Below are positions 1 to 13,786 of a stretch of 14,285 nucleotides of DNA, piece by piece (the first letter of the stretch is position 1; the number at the start of each line of letters is the position of its first letter). The translations under genes were made by a program, and so were the position numbers. The stretch lies in the IMG/VR virus record IMGVR_UViG_2660238128_000002. One strand, given 5' to 3'. The stretch comes from a virus (taxonomy: Duplodnaviria > Heunggongvirae > Uroviricota > Caudoviricetes). A model generated the notes under the pieces. That model made no database searches and was not told where the DNA came from. It saw nothing but the letters and a program-made list of their open reading frames with translations.

Positions 1-1083
1 ATGTCGTCTAATAATCGACTCCATTATCTTGATGGTATTCGTGGCTGGGCCGCAACTATTGTTGTCTTCGGGCACACCATGGGGGGCGTGATTGCAATTG
101 ACGCACCTAATTTTGTAAATCATCAATGGATGAGCTTTTTTACAAATGCTCATCTTGCTGTTTTGGTATTTTTTGTTTTATCAGGCTACGTCCTGAGCGT
201 TAGCCAAATCTACTCATCAAAACGTAATACTGCGGTATCCACCGTTGCAAGATTATTCAGATTGGCTCTTCCGATTCTGTTCGTAAGCCTTGTCGCATAT
301 ATCATGATGAGGTTAAACCTATTTTTCAATGTTCAAGCCGCTACTAATGACATATCGAAATCGTGGTTAGGGACATTTTTCAGGTTTGAGCCGTCACTAC
401 CTGGTGTATTTTCCTTTTCATTTTTCGATGTATTTTTCGCTTATGATACTCCGACATCATACAACTCTTCATTATGGACCATGCCTATAGAAATGGCTGG
501 GTCAATTCTAATTTATTCATACATAGCTATATTCAGAACTGAAAAATTCAACTGGATAATTTCTTCCATTTTAATAGTTTATTTCTATTTTTATAGCCCA
601 TTCATGTTCTGCTTTATGGTTGGGTATGTTCTGGCTGAACTGAAAAAAATTAACAACCTATACCTGAGTGGTAGAAATGAAATACCGTTGATATTTATTT
701 TCTTTGCCATGATCTATCTGGATACATACCATAGGCCGGTTGATGAGATTATTCAGGCGCTTGAGGCGGTAGTATTTGTTGTTGTAATATCTTACAGCAA
801 AACTTTATCATCGCTGTTCTCATCAAGAGCATCAAGATTTATGGGCAGGATTTCGTTTTCTCTATATCTAGTTCAGATACTGGTTATTTGCTCATGGTCT
901 TCGTACATGAAGATTTTACTATCAAACTCTGGTATTAATATAAATATTGCAGCCTCAATAAACCTCATATCATCCATGGCTTTGTGCATATTAACAGCAA
1001 GAGCCATGACTCCTATTGATGAATTTAGTGTTAAACACTCCAAAACCATTGCTTTTAAATTATTAAATTTATGCTCTAGGTAA
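1..1083 (+). CDS. Integral-membrane acyltransferase, acyltransferase-3 family (O-antigen O-acetyltransferase-like; lysogenic-conversion candidate)
   Basis: 360-aa ORF. N-terminal motif LDGIRGWAA...VVFGH matches the conserved N-terminal Arg/His region of acyltransferase-3 (Oac/OafA-type) enzymes. Protein is very hydrophobic, consistent with a multi-pass membrane protein. Gene is AT-rich relative to the tail genes and convergent to the tail fiber gene. Family assignment from memory of the motif, not a search. Confidence 0.7.
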   Translation: MSSNNRLHYLDGIRGWAATIVVFGHTMGGVIAIDAPNFVNHQWMSFFTNAHLAVLVFFVLSGYVLSVSQIYSSKRNTAVSTVARLFRLALPILFVSLVAYIMMRLNLFFNVQAATNDISKSWLGTFFRFEPSLPGVFSFSFFDVFFAYDTPTSYNSSLWTMPIEMAGSILIYSYIAIFRTEKFNWIISSILIVYFYFYSPFMFCFMVGYVLAELKKINNLYLSGRNEIPLIFIFFAMIYLDTYHRPVDEIIQALEAVVFVVVISYSKTLSSLFSSRASRFMGRISFSLYLVQILVICSWSSYMKILLSNSGININIAASINLISSMALCILTARAMTPIDEFSVKHSKTIAFKLLNLCSR

Positions 1084-5088: not shown

Positions 5089-5777
5089 GTCGGTTTATCC
5101 GTTGCATTGGAATTTATTGTTGACCCACCACTTTGTATTCCTGAAACAGAATGTTTGTGATTGTTATAGTTGTCCCTTAAATTTTTAACAGTAGATGACT
5201 GTGAGTCTGCGTTATCCTGAATATCGCCACTAACTTTAAGTAAAGGCGTATTCATGTTGACTCCATCAGGAGCATCAATATTTAACGATGAGCATTTGAT
5301 ATTTAGTGGGTTAGGCGTGGTTATATTTATTGCACCGTCAGCGAATTCAATGAATTGAGTAGGTGAAATGTTTAATACCCCACCAAGATAAATCGCATCC
5401 GATTTACTGTGTCGTCTTTTGCTTCCAGGTACTGATTCTTTACGATTTTTTCTTACCAGTGATGTGTCTTTGTCGCATACCGCAATCAGACCAATATCAC
5501 CTGCCACAGGGTCCATAATTACAGCGCTGTTTCCTCTCTGCAACCGCCATACGGGAAGATCATATAAAACCGAGTTGGAAATCATTTTTCCTGTACGGTC
5601 TGTTCTGGTTAGTAAAGGAAGAACATCAACAACTAAATCTGGTGCTTCCCCTCTGACTTCCTGAACTTTCGCTAACTCAATGAAGAAATATCCAGACATC
5701 AGCATCTCAAAAATATATTCCTGAGATTGAGCCTCACTTACCTGAGCAGGCGTTGGAGTAAATAGTTGCTTATCCAT
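5085..5777 (-). CDS. Baseplate spike / assembly protein V-like (Mu gp45 position)
   Basis: The ORF track gives 5085..5870 (261 aa), but its first ~31 codons overlap the upstream gene. The internal ATG at 5777 (MDKQLF...) gives an 8-nt ATGGATAA start/stop overlap typical of coupled phage genes. Start choice is uncertain (alternatives at 5846 and 5870). The C-terminal region is Gly/Ser/Asn-rich. Confidence 0.6.
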   Translation of the reverse strand: MDKQLFTPTPAQVSEAQSQEYIFEMLMSGYFFIELAKVQEVRGEAPDLVVDVLPLLTRTDRTGKMISNSVLYDLPVWRLQRGNSAVIMDPVAGDIGLIAVCDKDTSLVRKNRKESVPGSKRRHSKSDAIYLGGVLNISPTQFIEFADGAINITTPNPLNIKCSSLNIDAPDGVNMNTPLLKVSGDIQDNADSQSSTVKNLRDNYNNHKHSVSGIQSGGSTINSNATDKPT

Positions 5778-6946
5778 TATTCTGTTGCGCCTCTGCTCTT
5801 TGTTCCGCTGTTCTGGCGGCAATACATATTGAGTGCCATGAACCATTTGGCATCCATGATGATAATTCATGCCGAACGGAGGTTAACTTATACCTTCCGC
5901 TTGCATGTGGTAGTTCTGTTTTGATATCCACATATCTTCCAATGCAAAGGAGAGATGAATATTGCGTCTGAAACATCAGCCCCCCATTTGAAAATACAGG
6001 ATATCCAACAAGTCCGTATTCTCTGGATATAAACGGAATTACATCATCTCTGTTTTTTTCTGAAGGCCAGAACTCTACTTTTGCAGGTGGCGTAGCTGAC
6101 ATTGCCAGTCCATAATCTGAACAGACTCTATAAAGTTGCTCAAAAACACTTCCTTCAAAATGCGGACTTCCTGATGTTGTCATCCCTTTTACATTATTAA
6201 ACACAGCTTCATAACCTGCACTTGCACAAATGGATGAGATGACATCTTCAACACTTTGCGCCCCCTGTGCTGTAAACGGACTTGCTGGCATGTTCTGCAA
6301 ATCAACATTAGAAGAAGCTGTTATCATCAGGCTGCTTTCAGGAGCAGAATTCATGTTTGCTATTGATGAAAGCATCGTGCCAGAGAAAACAAGAGAATCA
6401 TCGGCAAATACTTCAACATTTAGCTTCTGCCCTTCTCCAATAATACCATCAGCCTTCCCTGATATATCAGCAAGCCTTTCAATTCCTAACCCGTAAAGAG
6501 ATATATCAGCCTGAGCGCCTCCCCGACCGGTAACAAAGTTCAGGGATACTGTTGACTTAACATTTCTGATGGAGATTTTATTGTTCCCATTTTTATCAAA
6601 TGCTGATGATTCATTCGTGAAGTCAAACCGAAGACTGTGATTTTTATACAAGCTCGTTTTCCTCGATGTAGTACAGCAAGTAACGGCTACCCAAGCCTTC
6701 CCATTGCGGATCCGATTCCCCATCATTATCAATGAAAATAAGGTCTCCCTTAAATCCAAGGTAGGAATATCTTACCATCTTATTCCCATACAGACATGGA
6801 ACGCCCTGCATAATTGGGACTTCATTAACAGTTAAATCCATGTACATAAAACTCTGTCGCTGAACAAGTTTTATATTACATTGCTGACCAGACAGACTTA
6901 CCGAAATGGACTGAGATTTGCTGGGAAGAACAGATACTGTAATCAT
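5770..6946 (-). pseudogene. Baseplate hub-like gene (Mu gpP/gp44 position) split into two overlapping reading frames
   Basis: A 100-aa ORF (6644..6946) and a 329-aa ORF (5770..6759) overlap by 116 nt in different frames. The downstream frame is +1 relative to the upstream one and begins at a TTG. Together they would encode about 390 aa, the size expected for a gpP-like protein. Both frames look protein-like across the overlap. Interpreted as a frameshift mutation, sequencing error or unusual +1 recoding. Confidence 0.5.
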
Positions 6947-7758
6947 GTACTCGCCTTAACTATATTTTTTGCAATATCTGCCGCTTTTTTTGTTGCGCTG
7001 TTTGTGACTTCGAGTATTGGTTTGGATACCGTATCAAGAGCACTCTGGAATTCAGTCTTGATTGTGTCGGAGATTTTTCCAGTGATTTCGCCAACAGATG
7101 ACTTCAGTGATGACCATGATTTACTTAGCTCATCGACAGTAGATTCCCTGGCTCCGCCATTGGTTATTTGCGGATCAACTCCTACACCTCCCTGTGACTT
7201 ATTGTTATCCGTTGGCTTCTGTTCTGACTGAGATCCAGAGAGGATAACCTCCATTTGCTGAATGACCTCCTGAAAATCAAGATAAACCGTCAGAAGAGTC
7301 ACCCCTTTTTGAGAGTTAACTTCGTAATAGTGGTCAACAAGGTCGAAACTCTCCAGAGTTTCCTTTGGCGTTTCAATATCGTATGTTTTTGCAGAGGACA
7401 GCATCATTTTGATTGTGTTCAGCGTGCTGTTCTGGCTTGTGAATGTGAGATCGAAAATATTCGGGATGTTGCCGGAAAAACCAGTAAGACCATTTACGAT
7501 GATTGCGCATCTTACCCTGGCGGGTTCTTTAACTTTGTTGATGGACTGGTATTTCCCTTTCTCCACCGGAGCGTTTGTTATTTGCGCCCTGCCACTTGGC
7601 TGCACGGATGCCATACCACTGAACTCAAGAGCAACCTCGCCAGTTTCCCTGTCACGAATCACATACTGAGGATGCAGAACGCTGTCGATGATCGAAAGCG
7701 GAGAGCCACCACCGATAGCATTGAATATGTCTGCTGTGTTTAAATCGATTATGCCCAT
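6943..7758 (-). CDS. Tail/baseplate protein in the Mu gpN position (function unassigned)
   Basis: 271-aa ORF, first gene after the immI-like cassette. Good RBS (GGAGAG, then 3 nt, then ATG). Stop overlaps the next gene's start. Assignment by position only. Confidence 0.5.
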   Translation of the reverse strand: MGIIDLNTADIFNAIGGGSPLSIIDSVLHPQYVIRDRETGEVALEFSGMASVQPSGRAQITNAPVEKGKYQSINKVKEPARVRCAIIVNGLTGFSGNIPNIFDLTFTSQNSTLNTIKMMLSSAKTYDIETPKETLESFDLVDHYYEVNSQKGVTLLTVYLDFQEVIQQMEVILSGSQSEQKPTDNNKSQGGVGVDPQITNGGARESTVDELSKSWSSLKSSVGEITGKISDTIKTEFQSALDTVSKPILEVTNSATKKAADIAKNIVKAST

Positions 7759-7770
7759 CTACTCTCCATT

Positions 7771-7795
7771 AAACAAAAACCCAGCCGAAGCTGGG
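7771..7795 (-). terminator. Intrinsic terminator downstream of the Bro-N antirepressor gene
   Basis: On the minus strand: CCCAGC-TTCG-GCTGGG hairpin (6-bp GC-rich stem, tetraloop) followed immediately by TTTTTGTTT. Lies between the antirepressor stop (7815) and the next gene's start (7758). Confidence 0.6.
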
Positions 7796-7814
7796 TCGTT
7801 GCGTTGGTTATCTG

Positions 7815-8693
7815 TCAGTAGTTATGTACTGAAGGAGGTAATTCTTTATTCTTAAGTCTCATCCATGCGGAAAGATTCGTTGGTCCGTCTGGCTCATTGA
7901 TATCAACATCTCGTGTGTGATTGATTAAAACGTCTCTCGCTATATCGATAATACGGGAGAACTCATAACCGCAGTCATGACATCTGCCGGAATAGTTCGA
8001 TTGAATTTGTTTTAATGCCGGATACAGTTCGCGGAATAATGCCTGTGAACGGTTGGCATAATCCCATAACCATACAAGGCTGTTTGCTTCTTTTGCAGAA
8101 ATCTCGTTGGTTTTCTTCTCTTGTTTGCCGATGAACTCACCTTCAAGCACTACCCTGTGGATGTACTCTACGGCCAGCGGGATTTGTTCAATTGAAAGTT
8201 CATCAATGCTGTCAATACCAAAACGCTGATGAACCATATTGTATGCATCGTCATAGCGAAGTCCTTTCTTTCCTACCAGCATGTTTACTGCATCGCGTAG
8301 CGGTGTTCTTTCCTCAACAGTGGTTTTCTTTCCTTTTACATACTCGCCATGTTTGCGAATTGAAGGCAGAACTTCTGCTGTTACCCACTTGCGGAATTTG
8401 TGTGGGACTGAACCTTTATTGACTGCATCGCGGCAGCGCAGAACCAATGTATACATACCTGATTCGCTCACAATGCTTAGATTCTGCTCACCACCAAGGG
8501 TGTAACTTAAAGTTACTCCCTTTTCATCGTCATCAAGTGCAGTAAGCGCCTTGCGTGAGTTAGTCAAAGCTAAAGCATCACAAACATCTTTAGCTACAAA
8601 CCACGGCTCGCCGCACTTGTTAATGACGCGAATTTCACTGTCGCCAAATTTGAAGATGGTGAAATCGTTTTGTGCCTTTGCTATACTTTTCAT
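7815..8693 (-). CDS. Bro-N domain antirepressor (Ant-like)
   Basis: 292-aa ORF. The N-terminus carries the Bro-N signature ([10 protein letters not shown]...[16 protein letters not shown]...[19 protein letters not shown]). The C-terminal half is a separate region of unassigned fold. It is the second gene of an operon headed by a small ribbon-helix-helix gene, as in P22 arc-ant. Confidence 0.75.
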
Positions 8694-8768
8694 GTCAATA
8701 TTTCCCGATCAGATTTGTTGATGTAGAAGCCTCGCCAGTTCCCGCTGTCGGGGCTTCGTTATTTTTAG
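8679..8768 (+). ncRNA. Candidate Sar-like cis-antisense small RNA covering the antirepressor ribosome-binding site
   Basis: Plus-strand extended -10 element TGcTATACT (8679-8687) inside the first codons of the antirepressor gene. About 40 nt further on the plus strand is a hairpin GAAGCCTCG...CGGGGCTTC (8726-8757, 9 bp including one G-U pair) followed by GTTATTTTT. The predicted ~75-nt transcript is antisense to the antirepressor RBS and the intercistronic region. The terminator is oriented for the plus strand only. Confidence 0.4.
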
Positions 8769-8926
8769 AGAGCATTCCGCATTTTCTCCCGGTACTTCAA
8801 CCACCAAGCAAGTCCCTGAACCAACACTGAGTTTTCTGACATCCCCTCTTCCTTGGCGATGCGTTTCACCTCCTCCTTAAAACGGTACGGATACCGAAGA
8901 GTTGTCTTCACTTCATTCTTTTCCAT
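8765..8926 (-). CDS. Arc-like ribbon-helix-helix transcriptional repressor (53 aa)
   Basis: ORF absent from the supplied track (below its cutoff). ATG at 8926 is preceded by GGAGTG with an in-frame stop immediately upstream. Translation: MEKNEVKTTLRYPYRFKEEVKRIAKEEGMSENSVLVQGLAWWLKYREKMRNAL. Shows the ribbon-helix-helix pattern (beta-strand TTLRYP, helix A, turn, helix B). Same length as P22 Arc and directly upstream of the antirepressor. Confidence 0.65.
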   Translation of the reverse strand: MEKNEVKTTLRYPYRFKEEVKRIAKEEGMSENSVLVQGLAWWLKYREKMRNAL

Positions 8927-9027
8927 TGATCACTCCTTTTACGTAATGGCATTATGCCTTGAAAGCAATATGCTATCATTGAATATAAATAGCAATATGC
9001 CATCATTGTTTTTTTTGAGGTGATGTT
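8927..9027. promoter_or_regulatory. Divergent promoter/operator region between the Arc-like and Mnt-like genes
   Basis: 100-bp AT-rich intergenic region. Two 18-bp direct repeats, AGCAATATGCTATCATTG (8964-8981) and AGCAATATGCCATCATTG (8991-9008), 17/18 identical, 27 bp apart. Perfect palindrome GGCAT-T-ATGCC at 8948-8958. Plus-strand -35-like TTGAAA (8959-8964) with a TATAAA -10-like element (8984-8989). Minus-strand CATAAT -10-like element within the palindrome. Confidence 0.5.
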
Positions 9028-9348
9028 ATGGCTGAAAAGCAGGTTAAAGATTACGAAAAGTTTGTTGTGCGTTTCCCTGACGGGATGAGGGACGCGATTG
9101 CGGAGAGAGCCAAACGAAACGGGCGCTCTATGAACTCAGAGATTGTGCAGATACTGGAAGATGCCTTGAATGCAGAAAATACTCTTGGGGAAATAGCAGA
9201 CAAAATCAACAGCGTCTCGGTTCCGTTAAATGTTGATGCGCTAGTTCAACTTCAAGCCCAAGTGATCGCCATGCAAAAAGAAATACAGGAAAAGTTCAGA
9301 GAGCAGAACGAAAAGTTGAGAGAACTGCTAAACAAAAAACCCACCTGA
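9028..9348 (+). CDS. Mnt-like (Arc/Mnt family) ribbon-helix-helix repressor with C-terminal coiled coil
   Basis: 106-aa ORF with RBS GAGG. N-terminal FVVRFPDGMRDAIAERAKRNGRSMNSEIVQILEDAL closely resembles the Mnt/Arc DNA-binding motif as I recall it (...NGRSMNSE...DAL). The C-terminal half is heptad-like and charged (oligomerisation). Divergently transcribed from the Arc-like/antirepressor operon. Confidence 0.75.
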   Translation: MAEKQVKDYEKFVVRFPDGMRDAIAERAKRNGRSMNSEIVQILEDALNAENTLGEIADKINSVSVPLNVDALVQLQAQVIAMQKEIQEKFREQNEKLRELLNKKPT

Positions 9349-9416: not shown

Positions 9417-11231
9417 CTAAGGCATTGCACTGGAAAATGCCGCGTTTGTTGACGCCCGGCTAACTTGCTGATTGACGCTTCTGGTAAGAGCATCAACTGT
9501 TGTCGGGTTACTGTTAACAACTACCGTGCCAATAGTTGTACTGCTGCTACGGCTGTTGTCAATTTTTGATGTTGTCTGGCTTGGTGTTGAGGCGATGCGT
9601 TGCTGCTGCTGATAGTAAGCCAGCGTCTCGTTTTCTTTTGCATTAAGAGCGGCGCGAATCTTTGGTACATATTCTCGCGTTTCTTTCGGCAGGGTGTTCC
9701 AGTATTTGGATGATGGTGAATCAAACCCGGTACTGGATATATATTTTAACTTTTTGTCTACATTACCCATCCCCCAGTTGTAAGCCATCAGCGCATGGTT
9801 AACATTGCCTTTATAGTGCTTTAGCAAATCCCTCATGAACCTTTCAGCAGCAGCGCGAGATTTCACCTCATCAAGGCGCTCATCAATCCCATCCCCGACC
9901 TTTAACCCGTACGCTATGGCAGTATCCTTCATGAACTGATACGGACCAACAGCACCTTTCGGACTATAAAGTTTTTTACCACCACTCGATTCCACCTCAC
10001 GAATGGCGTCAAGGAGAGAATCCATGCTTACTGGCTTTACTCCGTCAGGGAGAGGGATATCTGGCTGAATGTTATTGCCATAAATCTCATCTCCTCTACG
10101 CCCAAAATCAGTATCAAAACCCATGCTGCGCATGGTATCTCCAAGTTCACGTTTAGAGTAATCAAACGATCCTTTAGCTGCCCCCTCAATGTTTTCCCTG
10201 TCATTGTAGAGATACAAACCATATGCTATTAACCCTGCTAACCATGGAGGAAGGGCGCCGCCTGTAAGTTTGCTTCCTACATATGCTGCTGCCAATAGTT
10301 TCAGAGCCTCTTCCGCACCACCAACTGCCTTTGTGAATTGCTTCGTCATATTCCCGGCGTCATTGAAAAAGCCAATGATGTCGCCATGATGTTTCTCAAT
10401 CCAGGAACCAAAAGCCTTCATCCCGTCAATAACGTCTGGAGCGAATGCCATGGCTAAATTTTGCTTTAATCGGGAAAACTCTGAATCAAGTTGCCCAAGG
10501 GTGGCAGCAACCTTCTCCTGCTCTTTTACCTGCTGTGCTGTAATACGGGATTTCTTTGTTTCTGAATCGACAAGCTGCTTAAGTTCCCCTGATTTTATTT
10601 TAGCGGCATCTGTCGGATCGAACCCTGCGGCAGCCATCACCTGCATCAGGTTTTCTTGAGAATGAGTCTTGCCATAGCGAGAAAACTCAGCAAGAGCCTT
10701 GTTTGGGTCGCCGAGCTTATTGATATCTAATCCGGTACGAGCTCCAAGAATCAGCAAATTTTGGGCAGCGCCAGTAAGCCCTCCCATAACAGTCGGATCG
10801 GCAATATTTGCCAAAGCCATTCTGGCATTCCCAGAAGATGAAATGAACGAGTCACCGTTAAGACCAGCCTGGCGAAATCCCCGCTGAACACCAAACATCT
10901 TATTAACATCAGAGCCGAAAAACTTGGCCTGTTGGCTGGCCCTCACAATTTCGTTGGCAGTAGATGTAAAAAGTTGCTTGACTCCATACAACCCTGCGCC
11001 AATTCCCAAAAATCCAGCGGCTGCTGTTGTCACGTTGCGGAAAGCTGAAACAGCGGTTTTACCGAACCTCTCCGTTTCCTGCCGCTGTTTTTCAAGTTCC
11101 TTTAGCCTTTCCTTCTCAGCCCTAGAAAGATCTTTGTTTAATTTACTAACTTCATCTTTTACTTTCCGTTTTCCATTCAGGAATTCATCGGCCTTAATTG
11201 TGACCTTGTAGGCCAACTCATTGATAATCAT
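9417..11231 (-). CDS. Tail tape measure protein with C-terminal soluble lytic transglycosylase (SLT) domain
   Basis: 604-aa ORF after the chaperone pair. N-terminal coiled-coil/charged region (EKERLKELEKQRQETERFGK) and Gly/Ala-rich hydrophobic segments. The C-terminal part has the SLT-type motif (EVESSGG...GAVGPYQFMKDTA...AYNWGMGNV, with the catalytic Glu in the E-S context). Confidence 0.75.
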   Translation of the reverse strand: MIINELAYKVTIKADEFLNGKRKVKDEVSKLNKDLSRAEKERLKELEKQRQETERFGKTAVSAFRNVTTAAAGFLGIGAGLYGVKQLFTSTANEIVRASQQAKFFGSDVNKMFGVQRGFRQAGLNGDSFISSSGNARMALANIADPTVMGGLTGAAQNLLILGARTGLDINKLGDPNKALAEFSRYGKTHSQENLMQVMAAAGFDPTDAAKIKSGELKQLVDSETKKSRITAQQVKEQEKVAATLGQLDSEFSRLKQNLAMAFAPDVIDGMKAFGSWIEKHHGDIIGFFNDAGNMTKQFTKAVGGAEEALKLLAAAYVGSKLTGGALPPWLAGLIAYGLYLYNDRENIEGAAKGSFDYSKRELGDTMRSMGFDTDFGRRGDEIYGNNIQPDIPLPDGVKPVSMDSLLDAIREVESSGGKKLYSPKGAVGPYQFMKDTAIAYGLKVGDGIDERLDEVKSRAAAERFMRDLLKHYKGNVNHALMAYNWGMGNVDKKLKYISSTGFDSPSSKYWNTLPKETREYVPKIRAALNAKENETLAYYQQQQRIASTPSQTTSKIDNSRSSSTTIGTVVVNSNPTTVDALTRSVNQQVSRASTNAAFSSAMP

Positions 11232-11446
11232 CGCTGCTCCTGATGTTTATTCCAGACCCGCTTGTTAAATGATTCCACCGAGATAATTTCCAGCAGGTTA
11301 TACATATCACGAACAGATAACCTTTCCTGCAAATCGGTATAAGTGGCTTTTCCTGAACAGATAATGGCGTTCATTGATGGTGTGACGTTTACGGGGATAA
11401 CGAGTTTTGCCGGAAGAGTCTCCTCTTCCATGAACGGGTACTTCAC
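11228..11446 (-). CDS. Tail assembly chaperone, T-like frame (probably expressed as a G-T fusion by -1 frameshift)
   Basis: 72-aa ORF (GTG start in the track) in the -1 frame relative to the upstream 135-aa gene. Its frame is open from 11467, and its stop overlaps the tape measure start. Position between tube and tape measure matches the conserved G/GT chaperone pair. Confidence 0.55.
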   Translation of the reverse strand: MKYPFMEEETLPAKLVIPVNVTPSMNAIICSGKATYTDLQERLSVRDMYNLLEIISVESFNKRVWNKHQEQR

Positions 11447-11850
11447 TCTCCGGCGATCGTTAAAAAATCAAAATTGACTTTAAATACCTTGTCCATTACC
11501 TGACGAATGGTTGATACCTCTTCAAAGTCGACAGGCTTCACGGTTCGCACCTGTCTGCTGCCTTCGTGTGTAATCACAATTTGCACAGTTGACATCAGGC
11601 GATCACGAAGTTTTCTGGCAACTTCCGGCGATGCGGCAGAAAGAACATTCAGACCAAGGGTGGCAAGGCCAGCGCACCCCATGGCAATCACATCAGCAGG
11701 GATACCAGAGAATCCCGATTCCCCCATGGAGCGGAATAAATCCTGTGCCAGTTCGTCGGCATCCCATGCCGACATCTCTATGATAATGAACTCCTTCCCA
11801 TTGTCGCGATTATCGTCTTCCACGATAAAGGGGATTTCTTTACGTGCCAT
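11443..11850 (-). CDS. Tail assembly chaperone, G-like
   Basis: 135-aa acidic protein. Start overlaps the tube gene stop (TGATG). Lies between the tube and tape measure genes. Contains the slippery heptamer near its 3' end. Confidence 0.6.
   Translation of the reverse strand: MARKEIPFIVEDDNRDNGKEFIIIEMSAWDADELAQDLFRSMGESGFSGIPADVIAMGCAGLATLGLNVLSAASPEVARKLRDRLMSTVQIVITHEGSRQVRTVKPVDFEEVSTIRQVMDKVFKVNFDFLTIAGE
11461..11467 (-). other. Candidate -1 programmed ribosomal frameshift slippery heptamer T_TTT_TTA
   Basis: In the zero frame of the 135-aa gene the sequence reads GAT TTT TTA (D F L), giving the X_XXY_YYZ heptamer U_UUU_UUA eight codons before the stop. The -1 frame is open from exactly this point into the 72-aa ORF. 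Confidence 0.5.
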
Positions 11851-12284
11851 CAGATAGTGCTCCGTGTTACAGACTCAAAGTGAAATACTGCCGGGCGTGG
11901 TTGCAGTACGCGCCGACCCGGAGGGGTTGGAGTCCATGTATAAAGAACCCCGTTCACAAAATTCCACTTCGCGCCGAGAGCCGGAACTGTAAGCACCGCA
12001 TTACACTGAAACGCTGAAATTGCAGTTCTCTCCGCTGCATACCAGTCATCAATCAGCGAGCCAGCATTGGATGTGGGCATCAGGTTGATGGTGAACTCTG
12101 TCGGGTTAAAGATAAAACCAGCATGGTATTTACCGTCCGCTGACATCATGTCTTCTTTGTTCTGTAGTGCGCCAGTTTCAAACATGTTATCAGCTGCGTA
12201 GTCGTCAACATCAAAACCGCCAGGGTAGTAAGCGGGTACGACGATTCGCAGCTTACTGTTTGCCGAGGTGATATCTATAGGCAT
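11850..12284 (-). CDS. Tail tube protein
   Basis: 144-aa ORF immediately downstream of the sheath gene with RBS AAGGGA. Size and position match a contractile-tail tube protein (Mu gpM position). Confidence 0.65.
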   Translation of the reverse strand: MPIDITSANSKLRIVVPAYYPGGFDVDDYAADNMFETGALQNKEDMMSADGKYHAGFIFNPTEFTINLMPTSNAGSLIDDWYAAERTAISAFQCNAVLTVPALGAKWNFVNGVLYTWTPTPPGRRVLQPRPAVFHFESVTRSTI

Positions 12285-12295
12285 GATTTATTCCC

Positions 12296-13786
12296 TTATA
12301 AAATCGCGGTTGAGGACATTGTGATGGACTGGATTAACTGACCATCGACATAATAAAAAATGACACCTTTCAGGTCGCGCTCAATGCGTGCAGAGCCTGA
12401 CTGTGTCGGGATGTACAGGAACCAGCCCTGTGAATACAGCGTCGATGAGATATCTTTTCCAACTGTGTTATTCACAATTCTGGTTTGCGCATTATCAAGT
12501 TTCACGCCACGCTGAATAGCCCCGAAATTGAGAGCCTGTTCAGCAACATCAATAACAGCAGCAGAAACTGCGCCGTATCCTGTCTCATTGAACGGGTAAG
12601 ACTGGTTATTGGTGAACAGGTTGGCAAAAGCACTAACCAGATTGGCATTAATCCATACCTGATTAATAAAACTGTCCAGCCATACAAACTTGCCAGTAAT
12701 GGCGCCATCAGATGCGTACTGCGCCATTGTTTTGTTCAGGCTGTATGAGCCGTAGAAGTTGTAACCGTTTGACTTCAGTGCCTGAGCGGTCGCCAGATCG
12801 CTTACGTTGGGTGCTAACCCTGAAAATCCACGGAACTTGAACGAGATACGCCCATTGGTGCGTGCAAAATCCACGGATGCAGCATATGCCAGTGCTGTAA
12901 CGCTATACAGGTATGTTCCGTACACCGGAAAAATGTTCTCGTAGCCATTTGCCACAACCACTTTCTGCACAAAGCAATTGGCATTATTGGCTACCGTTCC
13001 TGCTGAAGTGGTGTCGTGAACAACATATCCAAACCGGTTTTTACTGCTGCTTGCCCATGCGCACAATTCTGTTTTCTGGTCATCGGCCAGTTCGACCAGC
13101 GAGTTAAACAGGATCCAGTTCTGGTTGACGTTGATGATGTTGTTCATCGTGTCTGTCAGAGTTACCGCATCAGAACCCGGTGATACAATCGCTGCGGAAT
13201 CCTGCGTCAGTAATAACCCGGCAGCCAGAGCGCCAGCAGAGGCATAAGACACTTCACTCTCTGCGCCAGTAGTGGCAGAGCGAATGATGAATCGGTTAGC
13301 GATTGGCAACCATTCAACCACCACCTTGCTTGCACCAATTCCAACCTGCAACTTGGACGCAATGTCACTAAAACTTGTGGCTGTGGACAAATCAATTGAT
13401 GTGCTGGTAGTCGACTCACCGTCAATGGAAAGGGTGATTGTTCCTGCTGGAATCGCTTTCAGTGTTGCCAGGGCAACACCTTTCAGGTTGCCGGACAGAA
13501 GATACCCAGCCACTGGTGAAGTAACAATACGATACATCAGCAGTTCACCAGGAATAACGGATGAATTTTCGTATCCGTTAAAATACTGTTGTGCTGCGAG
13601 GAATTCTTTCGATTCACTCCCCATCAAAGCTGATACATCAGATGAGGAGTAATAAGATTGTACCGCGCCAACCGGGATAAGCTCGTTATCGGTCAACATC
13701 AGGCCGTTAGCATCAACCGCAGAACCGGCAGGCGTAACGACATTGGGCGTGATATTAAAATCTACAGATAAAGGGATTGTGCTCAT
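12296..13786 (-). CDS. Tail sheath protein
   Basis: 496-aa ORF, first large gene of the tail operon and followed by the tube gene. Size is almost identical to the Mu sheath protein gpL (495 aa). Call is by size and synteny; resemblance to a DUF3383-type sheath is my recollection only. Confidence 0.7.
   Translation of the reverse strand: MSTIPLSVDFNITPNVVTPAGSAVDANGLMLTDNELIPVGAVQSYYSSSDVSALMGSESKEFLAAQQYFNGYENSSVIPGELLMYRIVTSPVAGYLLSGNLKGVALATLKAIPAGTITLSIDGESTTSTSIDLSTATSFSDIASKLQVGIGASKVVVEWLPIANRFIIRSATTGAESEVSYASAGALAAGLLLTQDSAAIVSPGSDAVTLTDTMNNIINVNQNWILFNSLVELADDQKTELCAWASSSKNRFGYVVHDTTSAGTVANNANCFVQKVVVANGYENIFPVYGTYLYSVTALAYAASVDFARTNGRISFKFRGFSGLAPNVSDLATAQALKSNGYNFYGSYSLNKTMAQYASDGAITGKFVWLDSFINQVWINANLVSAFANLFTNNQSYPFNETGYGAVSAAVIDVAEQALNFGAIQRGVKLDNAQTRIVNNTVGKDISSTLYSQGWFLYIPTQSGSARIERDLKGVIFYYVDGQLIQSITMSSTAIL

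What the first reader, a model, noticed from the sequence alone, without database searches (positions are those of the whole stretch)
11228..11850. Conserved-type -1 programmed frameshift predicted in the tail assembly chaperone pair
The 135-aa chaperone gene contains the canonical slippery heptamer U_UUU_UUA (11461-11467, minus strand) eight codons before its stop, and the -1 frame is open from exactly there into the 72-aa ORF, which ends overlapping the tape measure start. This reproduces the G/GT arrangement conserved in long-tailed phages. The predicted products are a ~135-aa G-like protein and a ~200-aa fusion. The downstream ORF is therefore probably not an independent GTG-initiated gene as the ORF track implies.
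Basis: partly seen in the sequence, partly recalled or inferred. Interest (0 to 1): 0.45.

Follow-up and report, generated by a model that had tools for sequence, protein, structure and literature searches.

The report
Unannotated tail-chaperone −1 frameshift site
An E. coli prophage almost certainly makes its two tail-assembly chaperones, a short one and a longer fusion, by the ribosome slipping back one base at a UUUUUUA run; this trick is already well known in long-tailed phages, but gene annotation has missed it in this phage group.

Summary
On the minus strand, the 135-aa gene (11850-11443) reads GA T_TTT_TTA, with the heptamer at 11467-11461 in the correct zero-frame register. The -1 frame has a TGA just upstream (11470-11468). 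It then stays open for 77 codons to a TGA (11230-11228) that overlaps the ATG of the 604-aa tape-measure gene.

The gene order is sheath, tube, chaperone, small ORF, tape measure.

- Of 151 distinct related loci, 146 keep T_TTT_TTN at the same DF[L/F] site, although the distance to the stop varies from 6 to 46 codons. One uses G_GGT_TTT.
- The small ORF has no conserved start codon or ribosome-binding site.
- Just after the heptamer, the -1 frame residues (RRRV) are more conserved than the zero-frame residues.
- A Ralstonia phage encodes the whole fusion as one uninterrupted ORF.

Predicted products are G (135 aa, 14.9 kDa) and GT (207 aa, 23.6 kDa).

A hairpin 6 nt downstream is plausible but weakly supported.

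Verdict: an ordinary, previously unannotated member of the conserved G/GT-type frameshift. Its main value is correcting annotation.

The parts
11443..11850 (-). G-like tail assembly chaperone gene (135 aa, 14.9 kDa). Its ATG shares a base with the stop codon of the tube gene.
   Evidence: ORF and translation. phrog_1932 'tail assembly chaperone' E 6e-51. Pfam Phage_TAC_15 is below threshold at 17.7 bits against a 22-bit cut-off. AlphaFold model pLDDT 76.8, matching BFVD proteins named tail assembly chaperone.
11461..11467 (-). Slippery heptamer U_UUU_UUA in the zero-frame register (P-site codon F129 UUU, A-site codon L130 UUA).
   Evidence: Read directly. Register computed. T_TTT_TTN is kept in 146 of 151 distinct homologous loci. 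The P-site codon is TTT in 125 of 125 unique proteins, against 39% TTT among Phe codons elsewhere in the same genes.
11228..11460 (-). -1 frame extension (T part): 77 codons from AAC (11461-11459, sharing its first base with the heptamer) to the stop TGA at 11230-11228. It encodes NDRRRVKYPF...HQEQR. Together with residues 1-130 it gives a 207-aa, 23.6-kDa GT fusion.
   Evidence: Translation. phrog_3976 E 1e-14. The -1 frame residues RRR(V/L) are more conserved than the zero-frame residues in the overlap. Colinear with an uninterrupted 191-aa ORF of Ralstonia phage PQ43W.
11468..11470 (-). TGA stop in the -1 frame immediately 5' of the heptamer. It confines any shift into the T frame to the 25 nt between 11467 and 11443.
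11409..11454 (-). Candidate stimulatory hairpin. 5' arm GCCGGAGAGU (11454-11445), 25-nt loop, 3' arm ACUCUUCCGGC (11419-11409, one bulged U). It starts 6 nt after the heptamer.
   Evidence: Part of the minimum-free-energy fold. 76.6% of cells are paired across 57 relatives, against 30-53% in slid controls, with compensatory changes at two pairs. The local z-score is -2.1 against other 55-nt windows of the locus. However, z is only -0.26 against dinucleotide shuffles and RNAalifold finds no consensus structure.
9417..11231 (-). Tape-measure protein gene (604 aa) with a C-terminal SLT lytic transglycosylase domain. Its ATG overlaps the T-frame stop (ATGA).
   Evidence: Pfam SLT E 1.6e-19. phrog_2013 'lytic tail protein', and phrog_9570 and phrog_2276 'tail length tape measure protein'.
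11850..12284 (-). Tail tube gene (144 aa).
   Evidence: Pfam E217_Gp32 E 5.5e-17. phrog_1964.
12296..13786 (-). Tail sheath gene (496 aa).
   Evidence: Pfam DUF3383 E 9e-107. phrog_205 'tail sheath' E 8e-103.

Best explanation
This is a programmed -1 ribosomal frameshift of the lambda G/GT and P2 E/E+E' type, in the tail module of an E. coli myovirus-type prophage.

**Shown from sequence.** Most ribosomes translating the chaperone gene should stop at TGA 11445-11443 and release the 135-aa G-like chaperone.

**Inferred mechanism.** A minority, with tRNA-Phe on UUU (F129) in the P site and tRNA-Leu on UUA (L130) in the A site, slip back one base on U_UUU_UUA. They then continue in the -1 frame for 77 more codons, giving a 207-aa GT-like fusion that ends at the start codon of the tape-measure gene.

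**Inferred function, by analogy with lambda (PMC5009743).** The shared G part binds the tape-measure protein, and the T part recruits the tube protein. A fixed low GT:G ratio would be set by the efficiency of slippage.

**Tentative.** A hairpin that starts 6 nt after the heptamer may raise the efficiency of this rather weak motif.

The small downstream ORF is not an independent gene.
For: **Anatomy.** The heptamer is in the correct register. The -1 frame is closed just before it and open from it to the tape-measure start.

**Synteny.** Sheath, tube, chaperone, small ORF, tape measure.

**Conservation.**
- 146 of 151 distinct loci from Enterobacterales, Vibrio, Pseudomonas, Acetobacter and Stenotrophomonas phages and prophages keep T_TTT_TTN at the homologous DF[L/F] site.
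- Burkholderia phage PE067 has G_GGT_TTT there.
- The distance from heptamer to stop varies from 6 to 46 codons, so the heptamer is conserved rather than the stop.

**Synonymous constraint.** The P-site codon is TTT in 125 of 125 unique proteins (background 39%). The preceding codon ends in T in 123 of 125.

**No independent start.** The first possible start in the -1 ORF ranges from residue 8 to residue 55, with no Shine-Dalgarno motif at the window's own candidate starts. Gene callers give 48-73 aa products with inconsistent starts.

**The -1 frame is under selection upstream of the G stop.** Entropy at the three positions is 0.32/0.88/1.85 in the -1 frame against 1.36/2.07/2.99 in the zero frame.

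**Fusion seen as one ORF elsewhere.** The conceptual fusion aligns without a break across the junction to the uninterrupted 191-aa gp47 of Ralstonia phage PQ43W (E 8e-12). That protein belongs to phrog_18181 and matches both phrog_1932 (G) and phrog_3976 (T).

**Literature.** G/T-type frameshifting is conserved among long-tailed dsDNA phages (PMC5009743, citing Xu et al. 2004).
Against: - There is no experimental evidence of any kind for this locus.
- U_UUU_UUA is not among the efficient motifs in E. coli. PMC4066793 lists H_HH.U_UU.Y, meaning C- or U-ending motifs, as efficient. PMC5009743 reports A_AAA_AAG as much more shift-prone.
- Support for the downstream hairpin is mixed, and it is absent in Edno5-like relatives.
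- A few relatives lack a canonical heptamer: Klebsiella KP12-type phages have GCT TTT GTA and L035 has GAA TTT TTA.
- In this window alone, a run of six T cannot formally exclude RNA polymerase slippage giving the same protein.
Confidence: 0.83

Rival explanations
1. Transcriptional slippage. RNA polymerase occasionally adds one U on the T6 run, so a subset of mRNAs encodes the same GT fusion in a single frame, with no ribosomal slippage.
For: The site is a homopolymer run of 6 T in 116 of 124 unique proteins counted and 7 T in six. In-register conservation cannot separate the two mechanisms, because the amino-acid motif fixes the register. PMC4066793 notes that U7 and A7 runs are avoided in E. 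coli genes, possibly because of transcriptional slippage.
Against: - By general knowledge, efficient bacterial transcriptional slippage needs about 8-9 or more identical bases.
- Burkholderia phage PE067 has only T4 at the site but a canonical two-triplet heptamer, G_GGT_TTT. This fits tandem tRNA slippage and not a homopolymer mechanism.
- The base before the run is held as T even where the amino acid changes: GAT, GGT, AAT, AGT and TCT. That keeps an X_XXY_YYZ pattern.
Confidence: 0.06
2. Two independent genes. The small ORF is translated on its own from GTG 11446 (72 aa) or ATG 11431 (67 aa, as annotated by PGAP), possibly by re-initiation after the G stop. No fusion is made.
For: PGAP and other gene callers annotate it this way. 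The window does have a GTG and an ATG near the 5' end of the ORF. Termination-reinitiation is conceivable, because the G stop overlaps the GTG (GTGA).
Against: - Neither start is conserved. The GTG is GTA in most relatives, because their G stop is TAA. The ATG is CTT, ATC, TTA and so on in others. In some loci the first possible start is at residue 55 of 79, which would delete the conserved core.
- There is no Shine-Dalgarno motif at a usable distance. GGAG lies 0 nt before the GTG and about 14-16 nt before the ATG.
- The -1 frame peptide upstream of these starts (FFxxRRRV) is conserved more strongly than the zero frame.
- A homologue encodes the fusion as one ORF.
Confidence: 0.07
3. Chance heptamer plus a decayed or non-coding downstream ORF, for example a frameshift mutation or assembly error in a once-continuous gene.
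For: In-register heptamers are common by chance: 17 in 3812 codons.
Against: The same two-frame arrangement recurs in about 150 distinct loci from independent assemblies. The T peptide is conserved from 26% to 97% identity and belongs to a PHROG family. The T-frame stop is coupled to the tape-measure start.
Confidence: 0.02

Closest known systems
Phage lambda G/GT tail assembly chaperones (Levin et al. 1993; Xu et al. 2004, 2013, 2014, as summarised in PMC5009743)
   Same: - Two overlapping ORFs immediately upstream of the tape-measure gene.
[quoted passage not shown]
- A short product plus an N-terminally identical fusion.
- The arrangement is conserved despite low sequence similarity.
   Different: - The heptamer is U_UUU_UUA, not G_GGA_AAG.
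- The host phage has a contractile tail (sheath plus tube), so the T part would act on a tube protein of the E217_Gp32 type.
- Sequence homology to lambda gpG and gpT was not tested.
- A possible downstream hairpin is present here; to my knowledge lambda needs none.
Phage P2 E/E+E' frameshift in the FETUD tail operon (Christie et al. 2002; cited as B141 in PMC5009743)
   Same: - Myovirus context: the chaperone pair lies between the tube gene and the tape-measure gene.
- From my own knowledge, P2 uses a U-rich heptamer (T_TTT_TTG). The same TTTTTTG variant occurs in 10 relatives of this locus.
   Different: - The protein families differ: phrog_1932 and phrog_3976 here, with no Pfam GpE-type hit.
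- The tail module here is of the DUF3383-sheath / E217_Gp32-tube type, not P2-like.
HIV-1 gag-pol frameshift signal (U_UUU_UUA plus stem-loop; PMC4373837, PMC5009743)
   Same: The heptamer is identical, with a candidate stem-loop after a short spacer. The same ambiguity is expected at the junction residue, Leu against Phe.
   Different: The HIV-1 signal is eukaryotic and viral, the proteins are unrelated, and its stem-loop is experimentally established. Here the hairpin is only inferred.
E. coli dnaX gamma/tau frameshift
   Same: A bacterial -1 programmed frameshift on a heptamer with a downstream hairpin.
   Different: dnaX uses A_AAA_AAG with an upstream Shine-Dalgarno-like stimulator, and the shifted frame terminates almost at once. 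No Shine-Dalgarno-like element lies 10-14 nt upstream here.

Membership tests
G/GT-type tail assembly chaperone -1 frameshift (Xu et al. 2004) | A gene pair located between the major tail or tube gene and the tape-measure gene. | tested here: met
   Sheath 12296-13786, tube 11850-12284, pair 11228-11850, tape measure 9417-11231.
G/GT-type tail assembly chaperone -1 frameshift (Xu et al. 2004) | The second ORF is in the -1 frame relative to the first, overlaps its 3' end, and runs to the tape-measure gene. | tested here: met
   The -1 frame is open from 11467 to 11228, with an 8-codon overlap with G and an ATGA junction with the tape-measure ATG.
G/GT-type tail assembly chaperone -1 frameshift (Xu et al. 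2004) | A canonical slippery heptamer X_XXY_YYZ in the zero-frame register inside the overlap. | tested here: met
   GA T_TTT_TTA at 11467-11461. It is the only such motif in the 25-nt window where a shift is possible.
G/GT-type tail assembly chaperone -1 frameshift (Xu et al. 2004) | [quoted passage not shown] | tested here: met
   146 of 151 distinct loci carry T_TTT_TTN and one carries G_GGT_TTT. TTT is the P-site codon in 125 of 125 unique proteins.
G/GT-type tail assembly chaperone -1 frameshift (Xu et al. 2004) | The downstream ORF lacks its own conserved start and ribosome-binding site. | tested here: met
   The first candidate start varies from residue 8 to residue 55, with no Shine-Dalgarno motif at the window's own candidate starts. 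Annotated lengths are inconsistent, 48-73 aa.
G/GT-type tail assembly chaperone -1 frameshift (Xu et al. 2004) | The upstream protein belongs to a tail assembly chaperone family or has that fold. | tested here: met
   phrog_1932 E 6e-51. BFVD fold matches to proteins named tail assembly chaperone or tape measure chaperone, E 1e-6 to 1e-2, TM up to 0.77. Caveats: Pfam Phage_TAC_15 is sub-threshold (17.7 against 22 bits), and there is no solved-structure relative.
G/GT-type tail assembly chaperone -1 frameshift (Xu et al. 2004) | The fusion protein is made in vivo at a low fixed ratio, both products are needed for tail assembly, and both are absent from virions. | not testable with these tools
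   This needs western blotting or mass spectrometry, and genetics.
G/GT-type tail assembly chaperone -1 frameshift (Xu et al. 2004) | Sequence homology to lambda gpG and gpT themselves. | not tested
   No lambda sequences were compared. The literature states that similarity among such pairs is low (PMC5009743), so this feature is not required for membership.
-1 frameshift signals with a 3' stimulatory RNA structure (dnaX, IS3, HIV-1 type) | A stable, conserved hairpin or pseudoknot 5-9 nt downstream of the heptamer. | tested here: inconclusive
   A 10-bp hairpin follows a 6-nt spacer. For: 76.6% of cells paired against at most 53% in slid controls, two covarying pairs, and local z -2.1. Against: the covariation score is not above the slid controls, z is -0.26 against shuffles, RNAalifold gives no consensus, there is no Rfam hit, and the hairpin is absent in Edno5-like and most TTC-type relatives.

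The most novel reading that the evidence does not exclude
This chaperone family (phrog_1932 plus phrog_3976) may hold several natural solutions to making G and GT.

- Most members use U_UUU_UUN slippage.
- Burkholderia phages use G_GGU_UUU.
- Klebsiella KP12-type phages keep the two-frame layout with only a U_UUU tetramer.
- Ralstonia phage PQ43W has resolved the system into an uninterrupted GT gene (phrog_18181) plus a separate G gene that ends exactly at the position equivalent to the shift site.

If these variants are all functional, the family is a ready-made comparative system. It could be used to ask why a frameshift, rather than two genes, is so widely retained, and how motif strength (TTA with a hairpin against TTC without one) tunes the G:GT ratio.
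Probability: 0.35. Interest if true: 0.4.

Novelty: new member of a known kind. Interest (0 to 1): 0.25.

Why it matters
The main value is correcting annotation. RefSeq (PGAP) and every protein record found label both ORFs 'hypothetical protein', and the second has arbitrary starts giving 48-73 aa.

This prophage is present in 20 of 5426 complete E. coli genomes. About 150 related phage and prophage loci, including Edwardsiella phages GF-2 and Edno5 and Pantoea phage PA-1, should carry a joined 'tail assembly chaperone' CDS with ribosomal slippage.

The finding extends the conserved G/GT rule to the DUF3383-sheath / E217_Gp32-tube class of contractile tails. It also supplies a large set of aligned natural sites for training frameshift predictors. 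It does not change any concept.

Tried and rejected
- **Megablast of 11000-12300 against the phage collection:** no match. Relatives had to be found at the protein level.
- **Locus scan with the 13-sequence alignment A1:** I split it into A2 and A3.
- **RNAalifold on 57 relatives:** no consensus structure.
- **Alternative local hairpin GGAAGAG/CUCUUCC, 31 nt downstream:** only 59% of cells paired and too far from the site. Rejected as a stimulator.
- **Rfam scan of the whole window:** nothing.
- **PDB sequence search with the fusion:** nothing. The PDB fold search gave only an insignificant top hit, 5ir0_B at E 0.28.
- **Single-sequence AlphaFold model of the fusion:** unusable, pLDDT 35.
- **Pfam:** no family for the T part and only a sub-threshold Phage_TAC_15 hit for G.
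- **Upstream Shine-Dalgarno-like stimulator of the dnaX type:** none at 10-14 nt.
- **Literature:** a paper retrieved for 'E217 and frameshift' (PMC13274417) was irrelevant. The paper describing the Edno5 prophage (PMC6372524) showed no occurrences of 'frameshift'.
- **tblastn 'single piece' alignments for PA-1 and KP12:** these looked like continuous ORFs. Frame-by-frame translation showed they are two-frame loci.
Full report
**1. What is in the sequence**

On the minus strand, the ORF 11850..11443 encodes 135 aa and ends ...AAT TTT GAT TTT TTA ACG ATC GCC GGA GAG TGA. The run TTTTTTA occupies 11467-11461. It lies in the X_XXY_YYZ register of the zero frame: T is the third base of D128, TTT is F129 and TTA is L130.

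The -1 frame has a TGA at 11470-11468, directly before the heptamer. It is then open for 77 codons (NDRRRVKYPFMEEE...HQEQR) to TGA at 11230-11228. That stop overlaps the ATG at 11231 of the 604-aa ORF as ATGA. A shift into this frame can therefore only happen within the 25 nt between 11467 and the G stop, and the heptamer is the only slippery motif there. The fusion would be 207 aa and 23.6 kDa, against 135 aa and 14.9 kDa for the unshifted product.

**2. Context**

The window is an E. coli prophage. The 1.3-kb segment around the site (11000-12300) is 98-99% identical to segments in 20 of 5426 complete E. coli genomes. The genes run sheath, tube, the 135-aa gene, the small ORF, and a 604-aa protein, followed by baseplate genes:
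- Sheath: DUF3383 / phrog_205.
- Tube: Pfam E217_Gp32.
- The 604-aa protein: its N-terminal two-thirds match tape-measure and 'lytic tail protein' PHROGs, and it carries an SLT lytic transglycosylase domain.

The 135-aa protein matches phrog_1932 'tail assembly chaperone' at E 6e-51. Pfam gives only a sub-threshold Phage_TAC_15 hit. An AlphaFold model built on 23 homologues (pLDDT 76.8) matches BFVD models named tail assembly chaperone, tail assembly protein or tape measure chaperone, with E from 1e-6 to 1e-2. No solved structure is related.

PGAP annotates the two ORFs as separate hypothetical proteins, the second starting at ATG 11431.

**3. Is it more than chance?**

A heptamer by itself is not. 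In-register XXXYYYZ motifs occur 17 times in 3812 codons of this window's genes, and TTTTTT is not enriched. Only this one leads into a long -1 ORF: 77 codons, against at most 31 for the other sixteen.

**4. Comparative evidence**

I gathered homologous loci from three sources: annotated phages, one genome per species and IMG/VR. This gave 151 distinct nucleotide versions of the gene pair.

*The heptamer is conserved.* 146 versions carry T_TTT_TTN in register at the homologous DF[L/F] motif. The totals of in-register motifs in the overlap window are TTA in 89 loci, TTC 41, TTG 11 and TTT 7. Two loci carry two such motifs, hence 148 across 146 loci. Burkholderia phage PE067 has G_GGT_TTT there.

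*The heptamer is held, not the stop.* The distance from the heptamer to the G stop ranges from 6 to 46 codons.

*Synonymous sites are constrained.* Among 125 unique proteins, the P-site Phe codon is TTT in every one, whereas Phe codons elsewhere in the same genes are TTT only 39% of the time. The preceding codon ends in T in 123 of 125, even when the amino acid changes: GAT, GGT, AAT, AGT or TCT. These counts are not phylogenetically independent. However, neighbouring Phe codons in the same alignments do toggle between TTT and TTC.

**5. The small ORF is not an independent gene**

The first ATG, GTG or TTG in the -1 ORF falls at residue 8, 13, 14, 22, 23, 28, 36, 46, 53 or 55, depending on the locus. 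The window's GTG is GTA wherever the G stop is TAA. The scan found no Shine-Dalgarno motif upstream of either of the window's candidate starts, and one upstream of only a few scattered candidates in the relatives. In the window, GGAG abuts the GTG and lies about 14-16 nt from the ATG.

Database entries for the small ORF are 48-73 aa 'hypothetical proteins' with inconsistent starts, and none is a fusion.

In the few codons between the heptamer and the G stop, the -1 frame residues are far better conserved than the zero-frame residues. R is found in 68 of 71, R in 59 of 71, then R or P, then V or L. Entropies are 0.32/0.88/1.85 for the -1 frame against 1.36/2.07/2.99 for the zero frame. That stretch has no possible start codon upstream, so it can only be translated by ribosomes arriving from the G frame.

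**6. The fusion exists as a single ORF elsewhere**

The conceptual fusion aligns without a gap at the junction (KVNFDFFNDRRRVKYPF against HLHVGFLFEREVLDVPV) to the uninterrupted 191-aa gp47 of Ralstonia phage PQ43W, over residues 58-207 at E 8e-12. That protein is a full-length member of phrog_18181 and also matches phrog_1932 (G) and phrog_3976 (T). The window's fusion matches phrog_18181 and phrog_4774 across the junction. PQ43W additionally has a separate G-like gene (phrog_1932, E 9e-21) that ends at the position equivalent to the shift site.

**7. Mechanism and stimulators**

The best reading is tandem -1 tRNA slippage on U_UUU_UUA, giving Leu or Phe at residue 130, as discussed for the same heptamer in HIV-1 (PMC5009743).

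In E. coli this motif is not among the efficient ones. PMC4066793 lists H_HH.U_UU.Y as efficient, and PMC5009743 reports A_AAA_AAG as far more shift-prone than U_UUU_UUA. This fits the low fusion:chaperone ratio known for lambda, about 1:30, and a 2- to 3-fold higher efficiency in P2 (PMC5009743).

Six nucleotides after the heptamer lies a hairpin, GCCGGAGAGU...ACUCUUCCGGC (11454-11409).
- For it: it is part of the minimum-free-energy fold. Across 57 relatives, 76.6% of cells pair, against 30-53% when the partner is slid. Compensatory changes are seen at two pairs, A-U to G-C and A-U to C-G, both at sites that are synonymous in the -1 frame. The 55 nt after the site fold better than 99.6% of equal windows in the same locus (z -2.1). 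The mean z is -1.0 in the close TTA clade and -0.3 in the mostly TTC clade.
- Against it: the covariation score does not exceed the slid controls. z is only -0.26 against dinucleotide shuffles. RNAalifold finds no consensus. Both arms are also protein-coding. Edno5-like relatives lack the hairpin.

I rate the hairpin as a stimulator at about 0.4. No Rfam family matches.

**8. Rivals**

- *Transcriptional slippage on T6* would give the same protein and cannot be excluded for this window alone. The G_GGT_TTT variant, with only four T, and the maintained X position argue for the ribosomal mechanism family-wide.
- *Independent initiation* is contradicted by section 5.
- *A decayed gene or an assembly error* is excluded by about 150 independent loci.

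**9. Comparison with what is known, and novelty**

This works like lambda G/GT and P2 E/E+E', and it meets every sequence-level criterion of that class (see the membership table). Production of the fusion in vivo is untested. It is a new, unannotated member of a known kind, in the DUF3383-sheath / E217_Gp32-tube class of contractile tails. Its interest is modest: annotation correction plus a large natural alignment of sites. The mildly novel angle is the set of variants within the family: the G_GGU_UUU heptamer, the tetramer-only Klebsiella phages, and the PQ43W arrangement with two separate genes.

Noticed in passing
L005 (Ralstonia phage PQ43W, PP405626.1) 1738-2313 and 2310-2714: The GT-equivalent is a single uninterrupted 191-aa ORF (phrog_18181). 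It is followed by a separate 134-aa G-like chaperone gene that ends at the position equivalent to the slippery site. This is a two-gene alternative to the frameshift.
   Followed up: partly
L004 and L016 (Klebsiella phages KP12 and ST899-OXA48phi17.1), around L004:2950-2960: These loci have the same two-frame chaperone layout and a conserved -1 peptide, but no canonical heptamer. The sequence is GCT TTT GTA, with only a U_UUU tetramer. This suggests P-site-only slippage or a defective site.
   Followed up: partly
L014 (Burkholderia phage PE067) 1878-1884: The homologous site uses G_GGT_TTT instead of T_TTT_TTN. In this record the neighbouring sheath and tube genes are annotated as 'cobalamin biosynthesis protein' and 'two-component system response regulator', which look like misannotations.
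   Followed up: no
window 7815-9348: An Arc-family repressor gene on the plus strand (9028-9348), a second small Arc-like ORF (8765-8926, minus strand) and a Bro-N/P22 antirepressor gene (7815-8693, minus strand) are inserted in the middle of the tail operon, between the tape-measure and baseplate genes.
   Followed up: no
window 9417-11231: The tape-measure protein carries an SLT lytic transglycosylase domain (residues 402-498), so the ruler protein doubles as a cell-wall-degrading injection protein.
   Followed up: no
window 1-1083 (+): An Acyl_transf_3 family acyltransferase ORF lies at the end of the tail-fibre region on the opposite strand. It could be a lysogenic-conversion (O-antigen acetylation) gene.
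   Followed up: no
window 5770-6946: The baseplate plug gene (6644-6946, Pam3_gp18 family) and the next gene overlap by 80-116 nt, depending on the start chosen (TTG in the ORF list; PGAP gives an 80-nt overlap in L001). This is unusually long for this tightly coupled operon, and the start may be mis-called.
   Followed up: no
L001 14325-15136 compared with window 7758-7815: The reference E. coli prophage (NZ_CP070007) has an extra pseudogene and a small ORF between the antirepressor and the Dit-like gene. The window lacks them.
   Followed up: no
A4 alignment and (clade A against clade B loci): Relatives with the weaker TTA-ending heptamer tend to have a stable structure just downstream (mean z -1.0). 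Relatives with the stronger TTC-ending heptamer mostly do not (mean z -0.3). This could be compensation between motif strength and stimulator, but it is confounded by phylogeny.
   Followed up: partly
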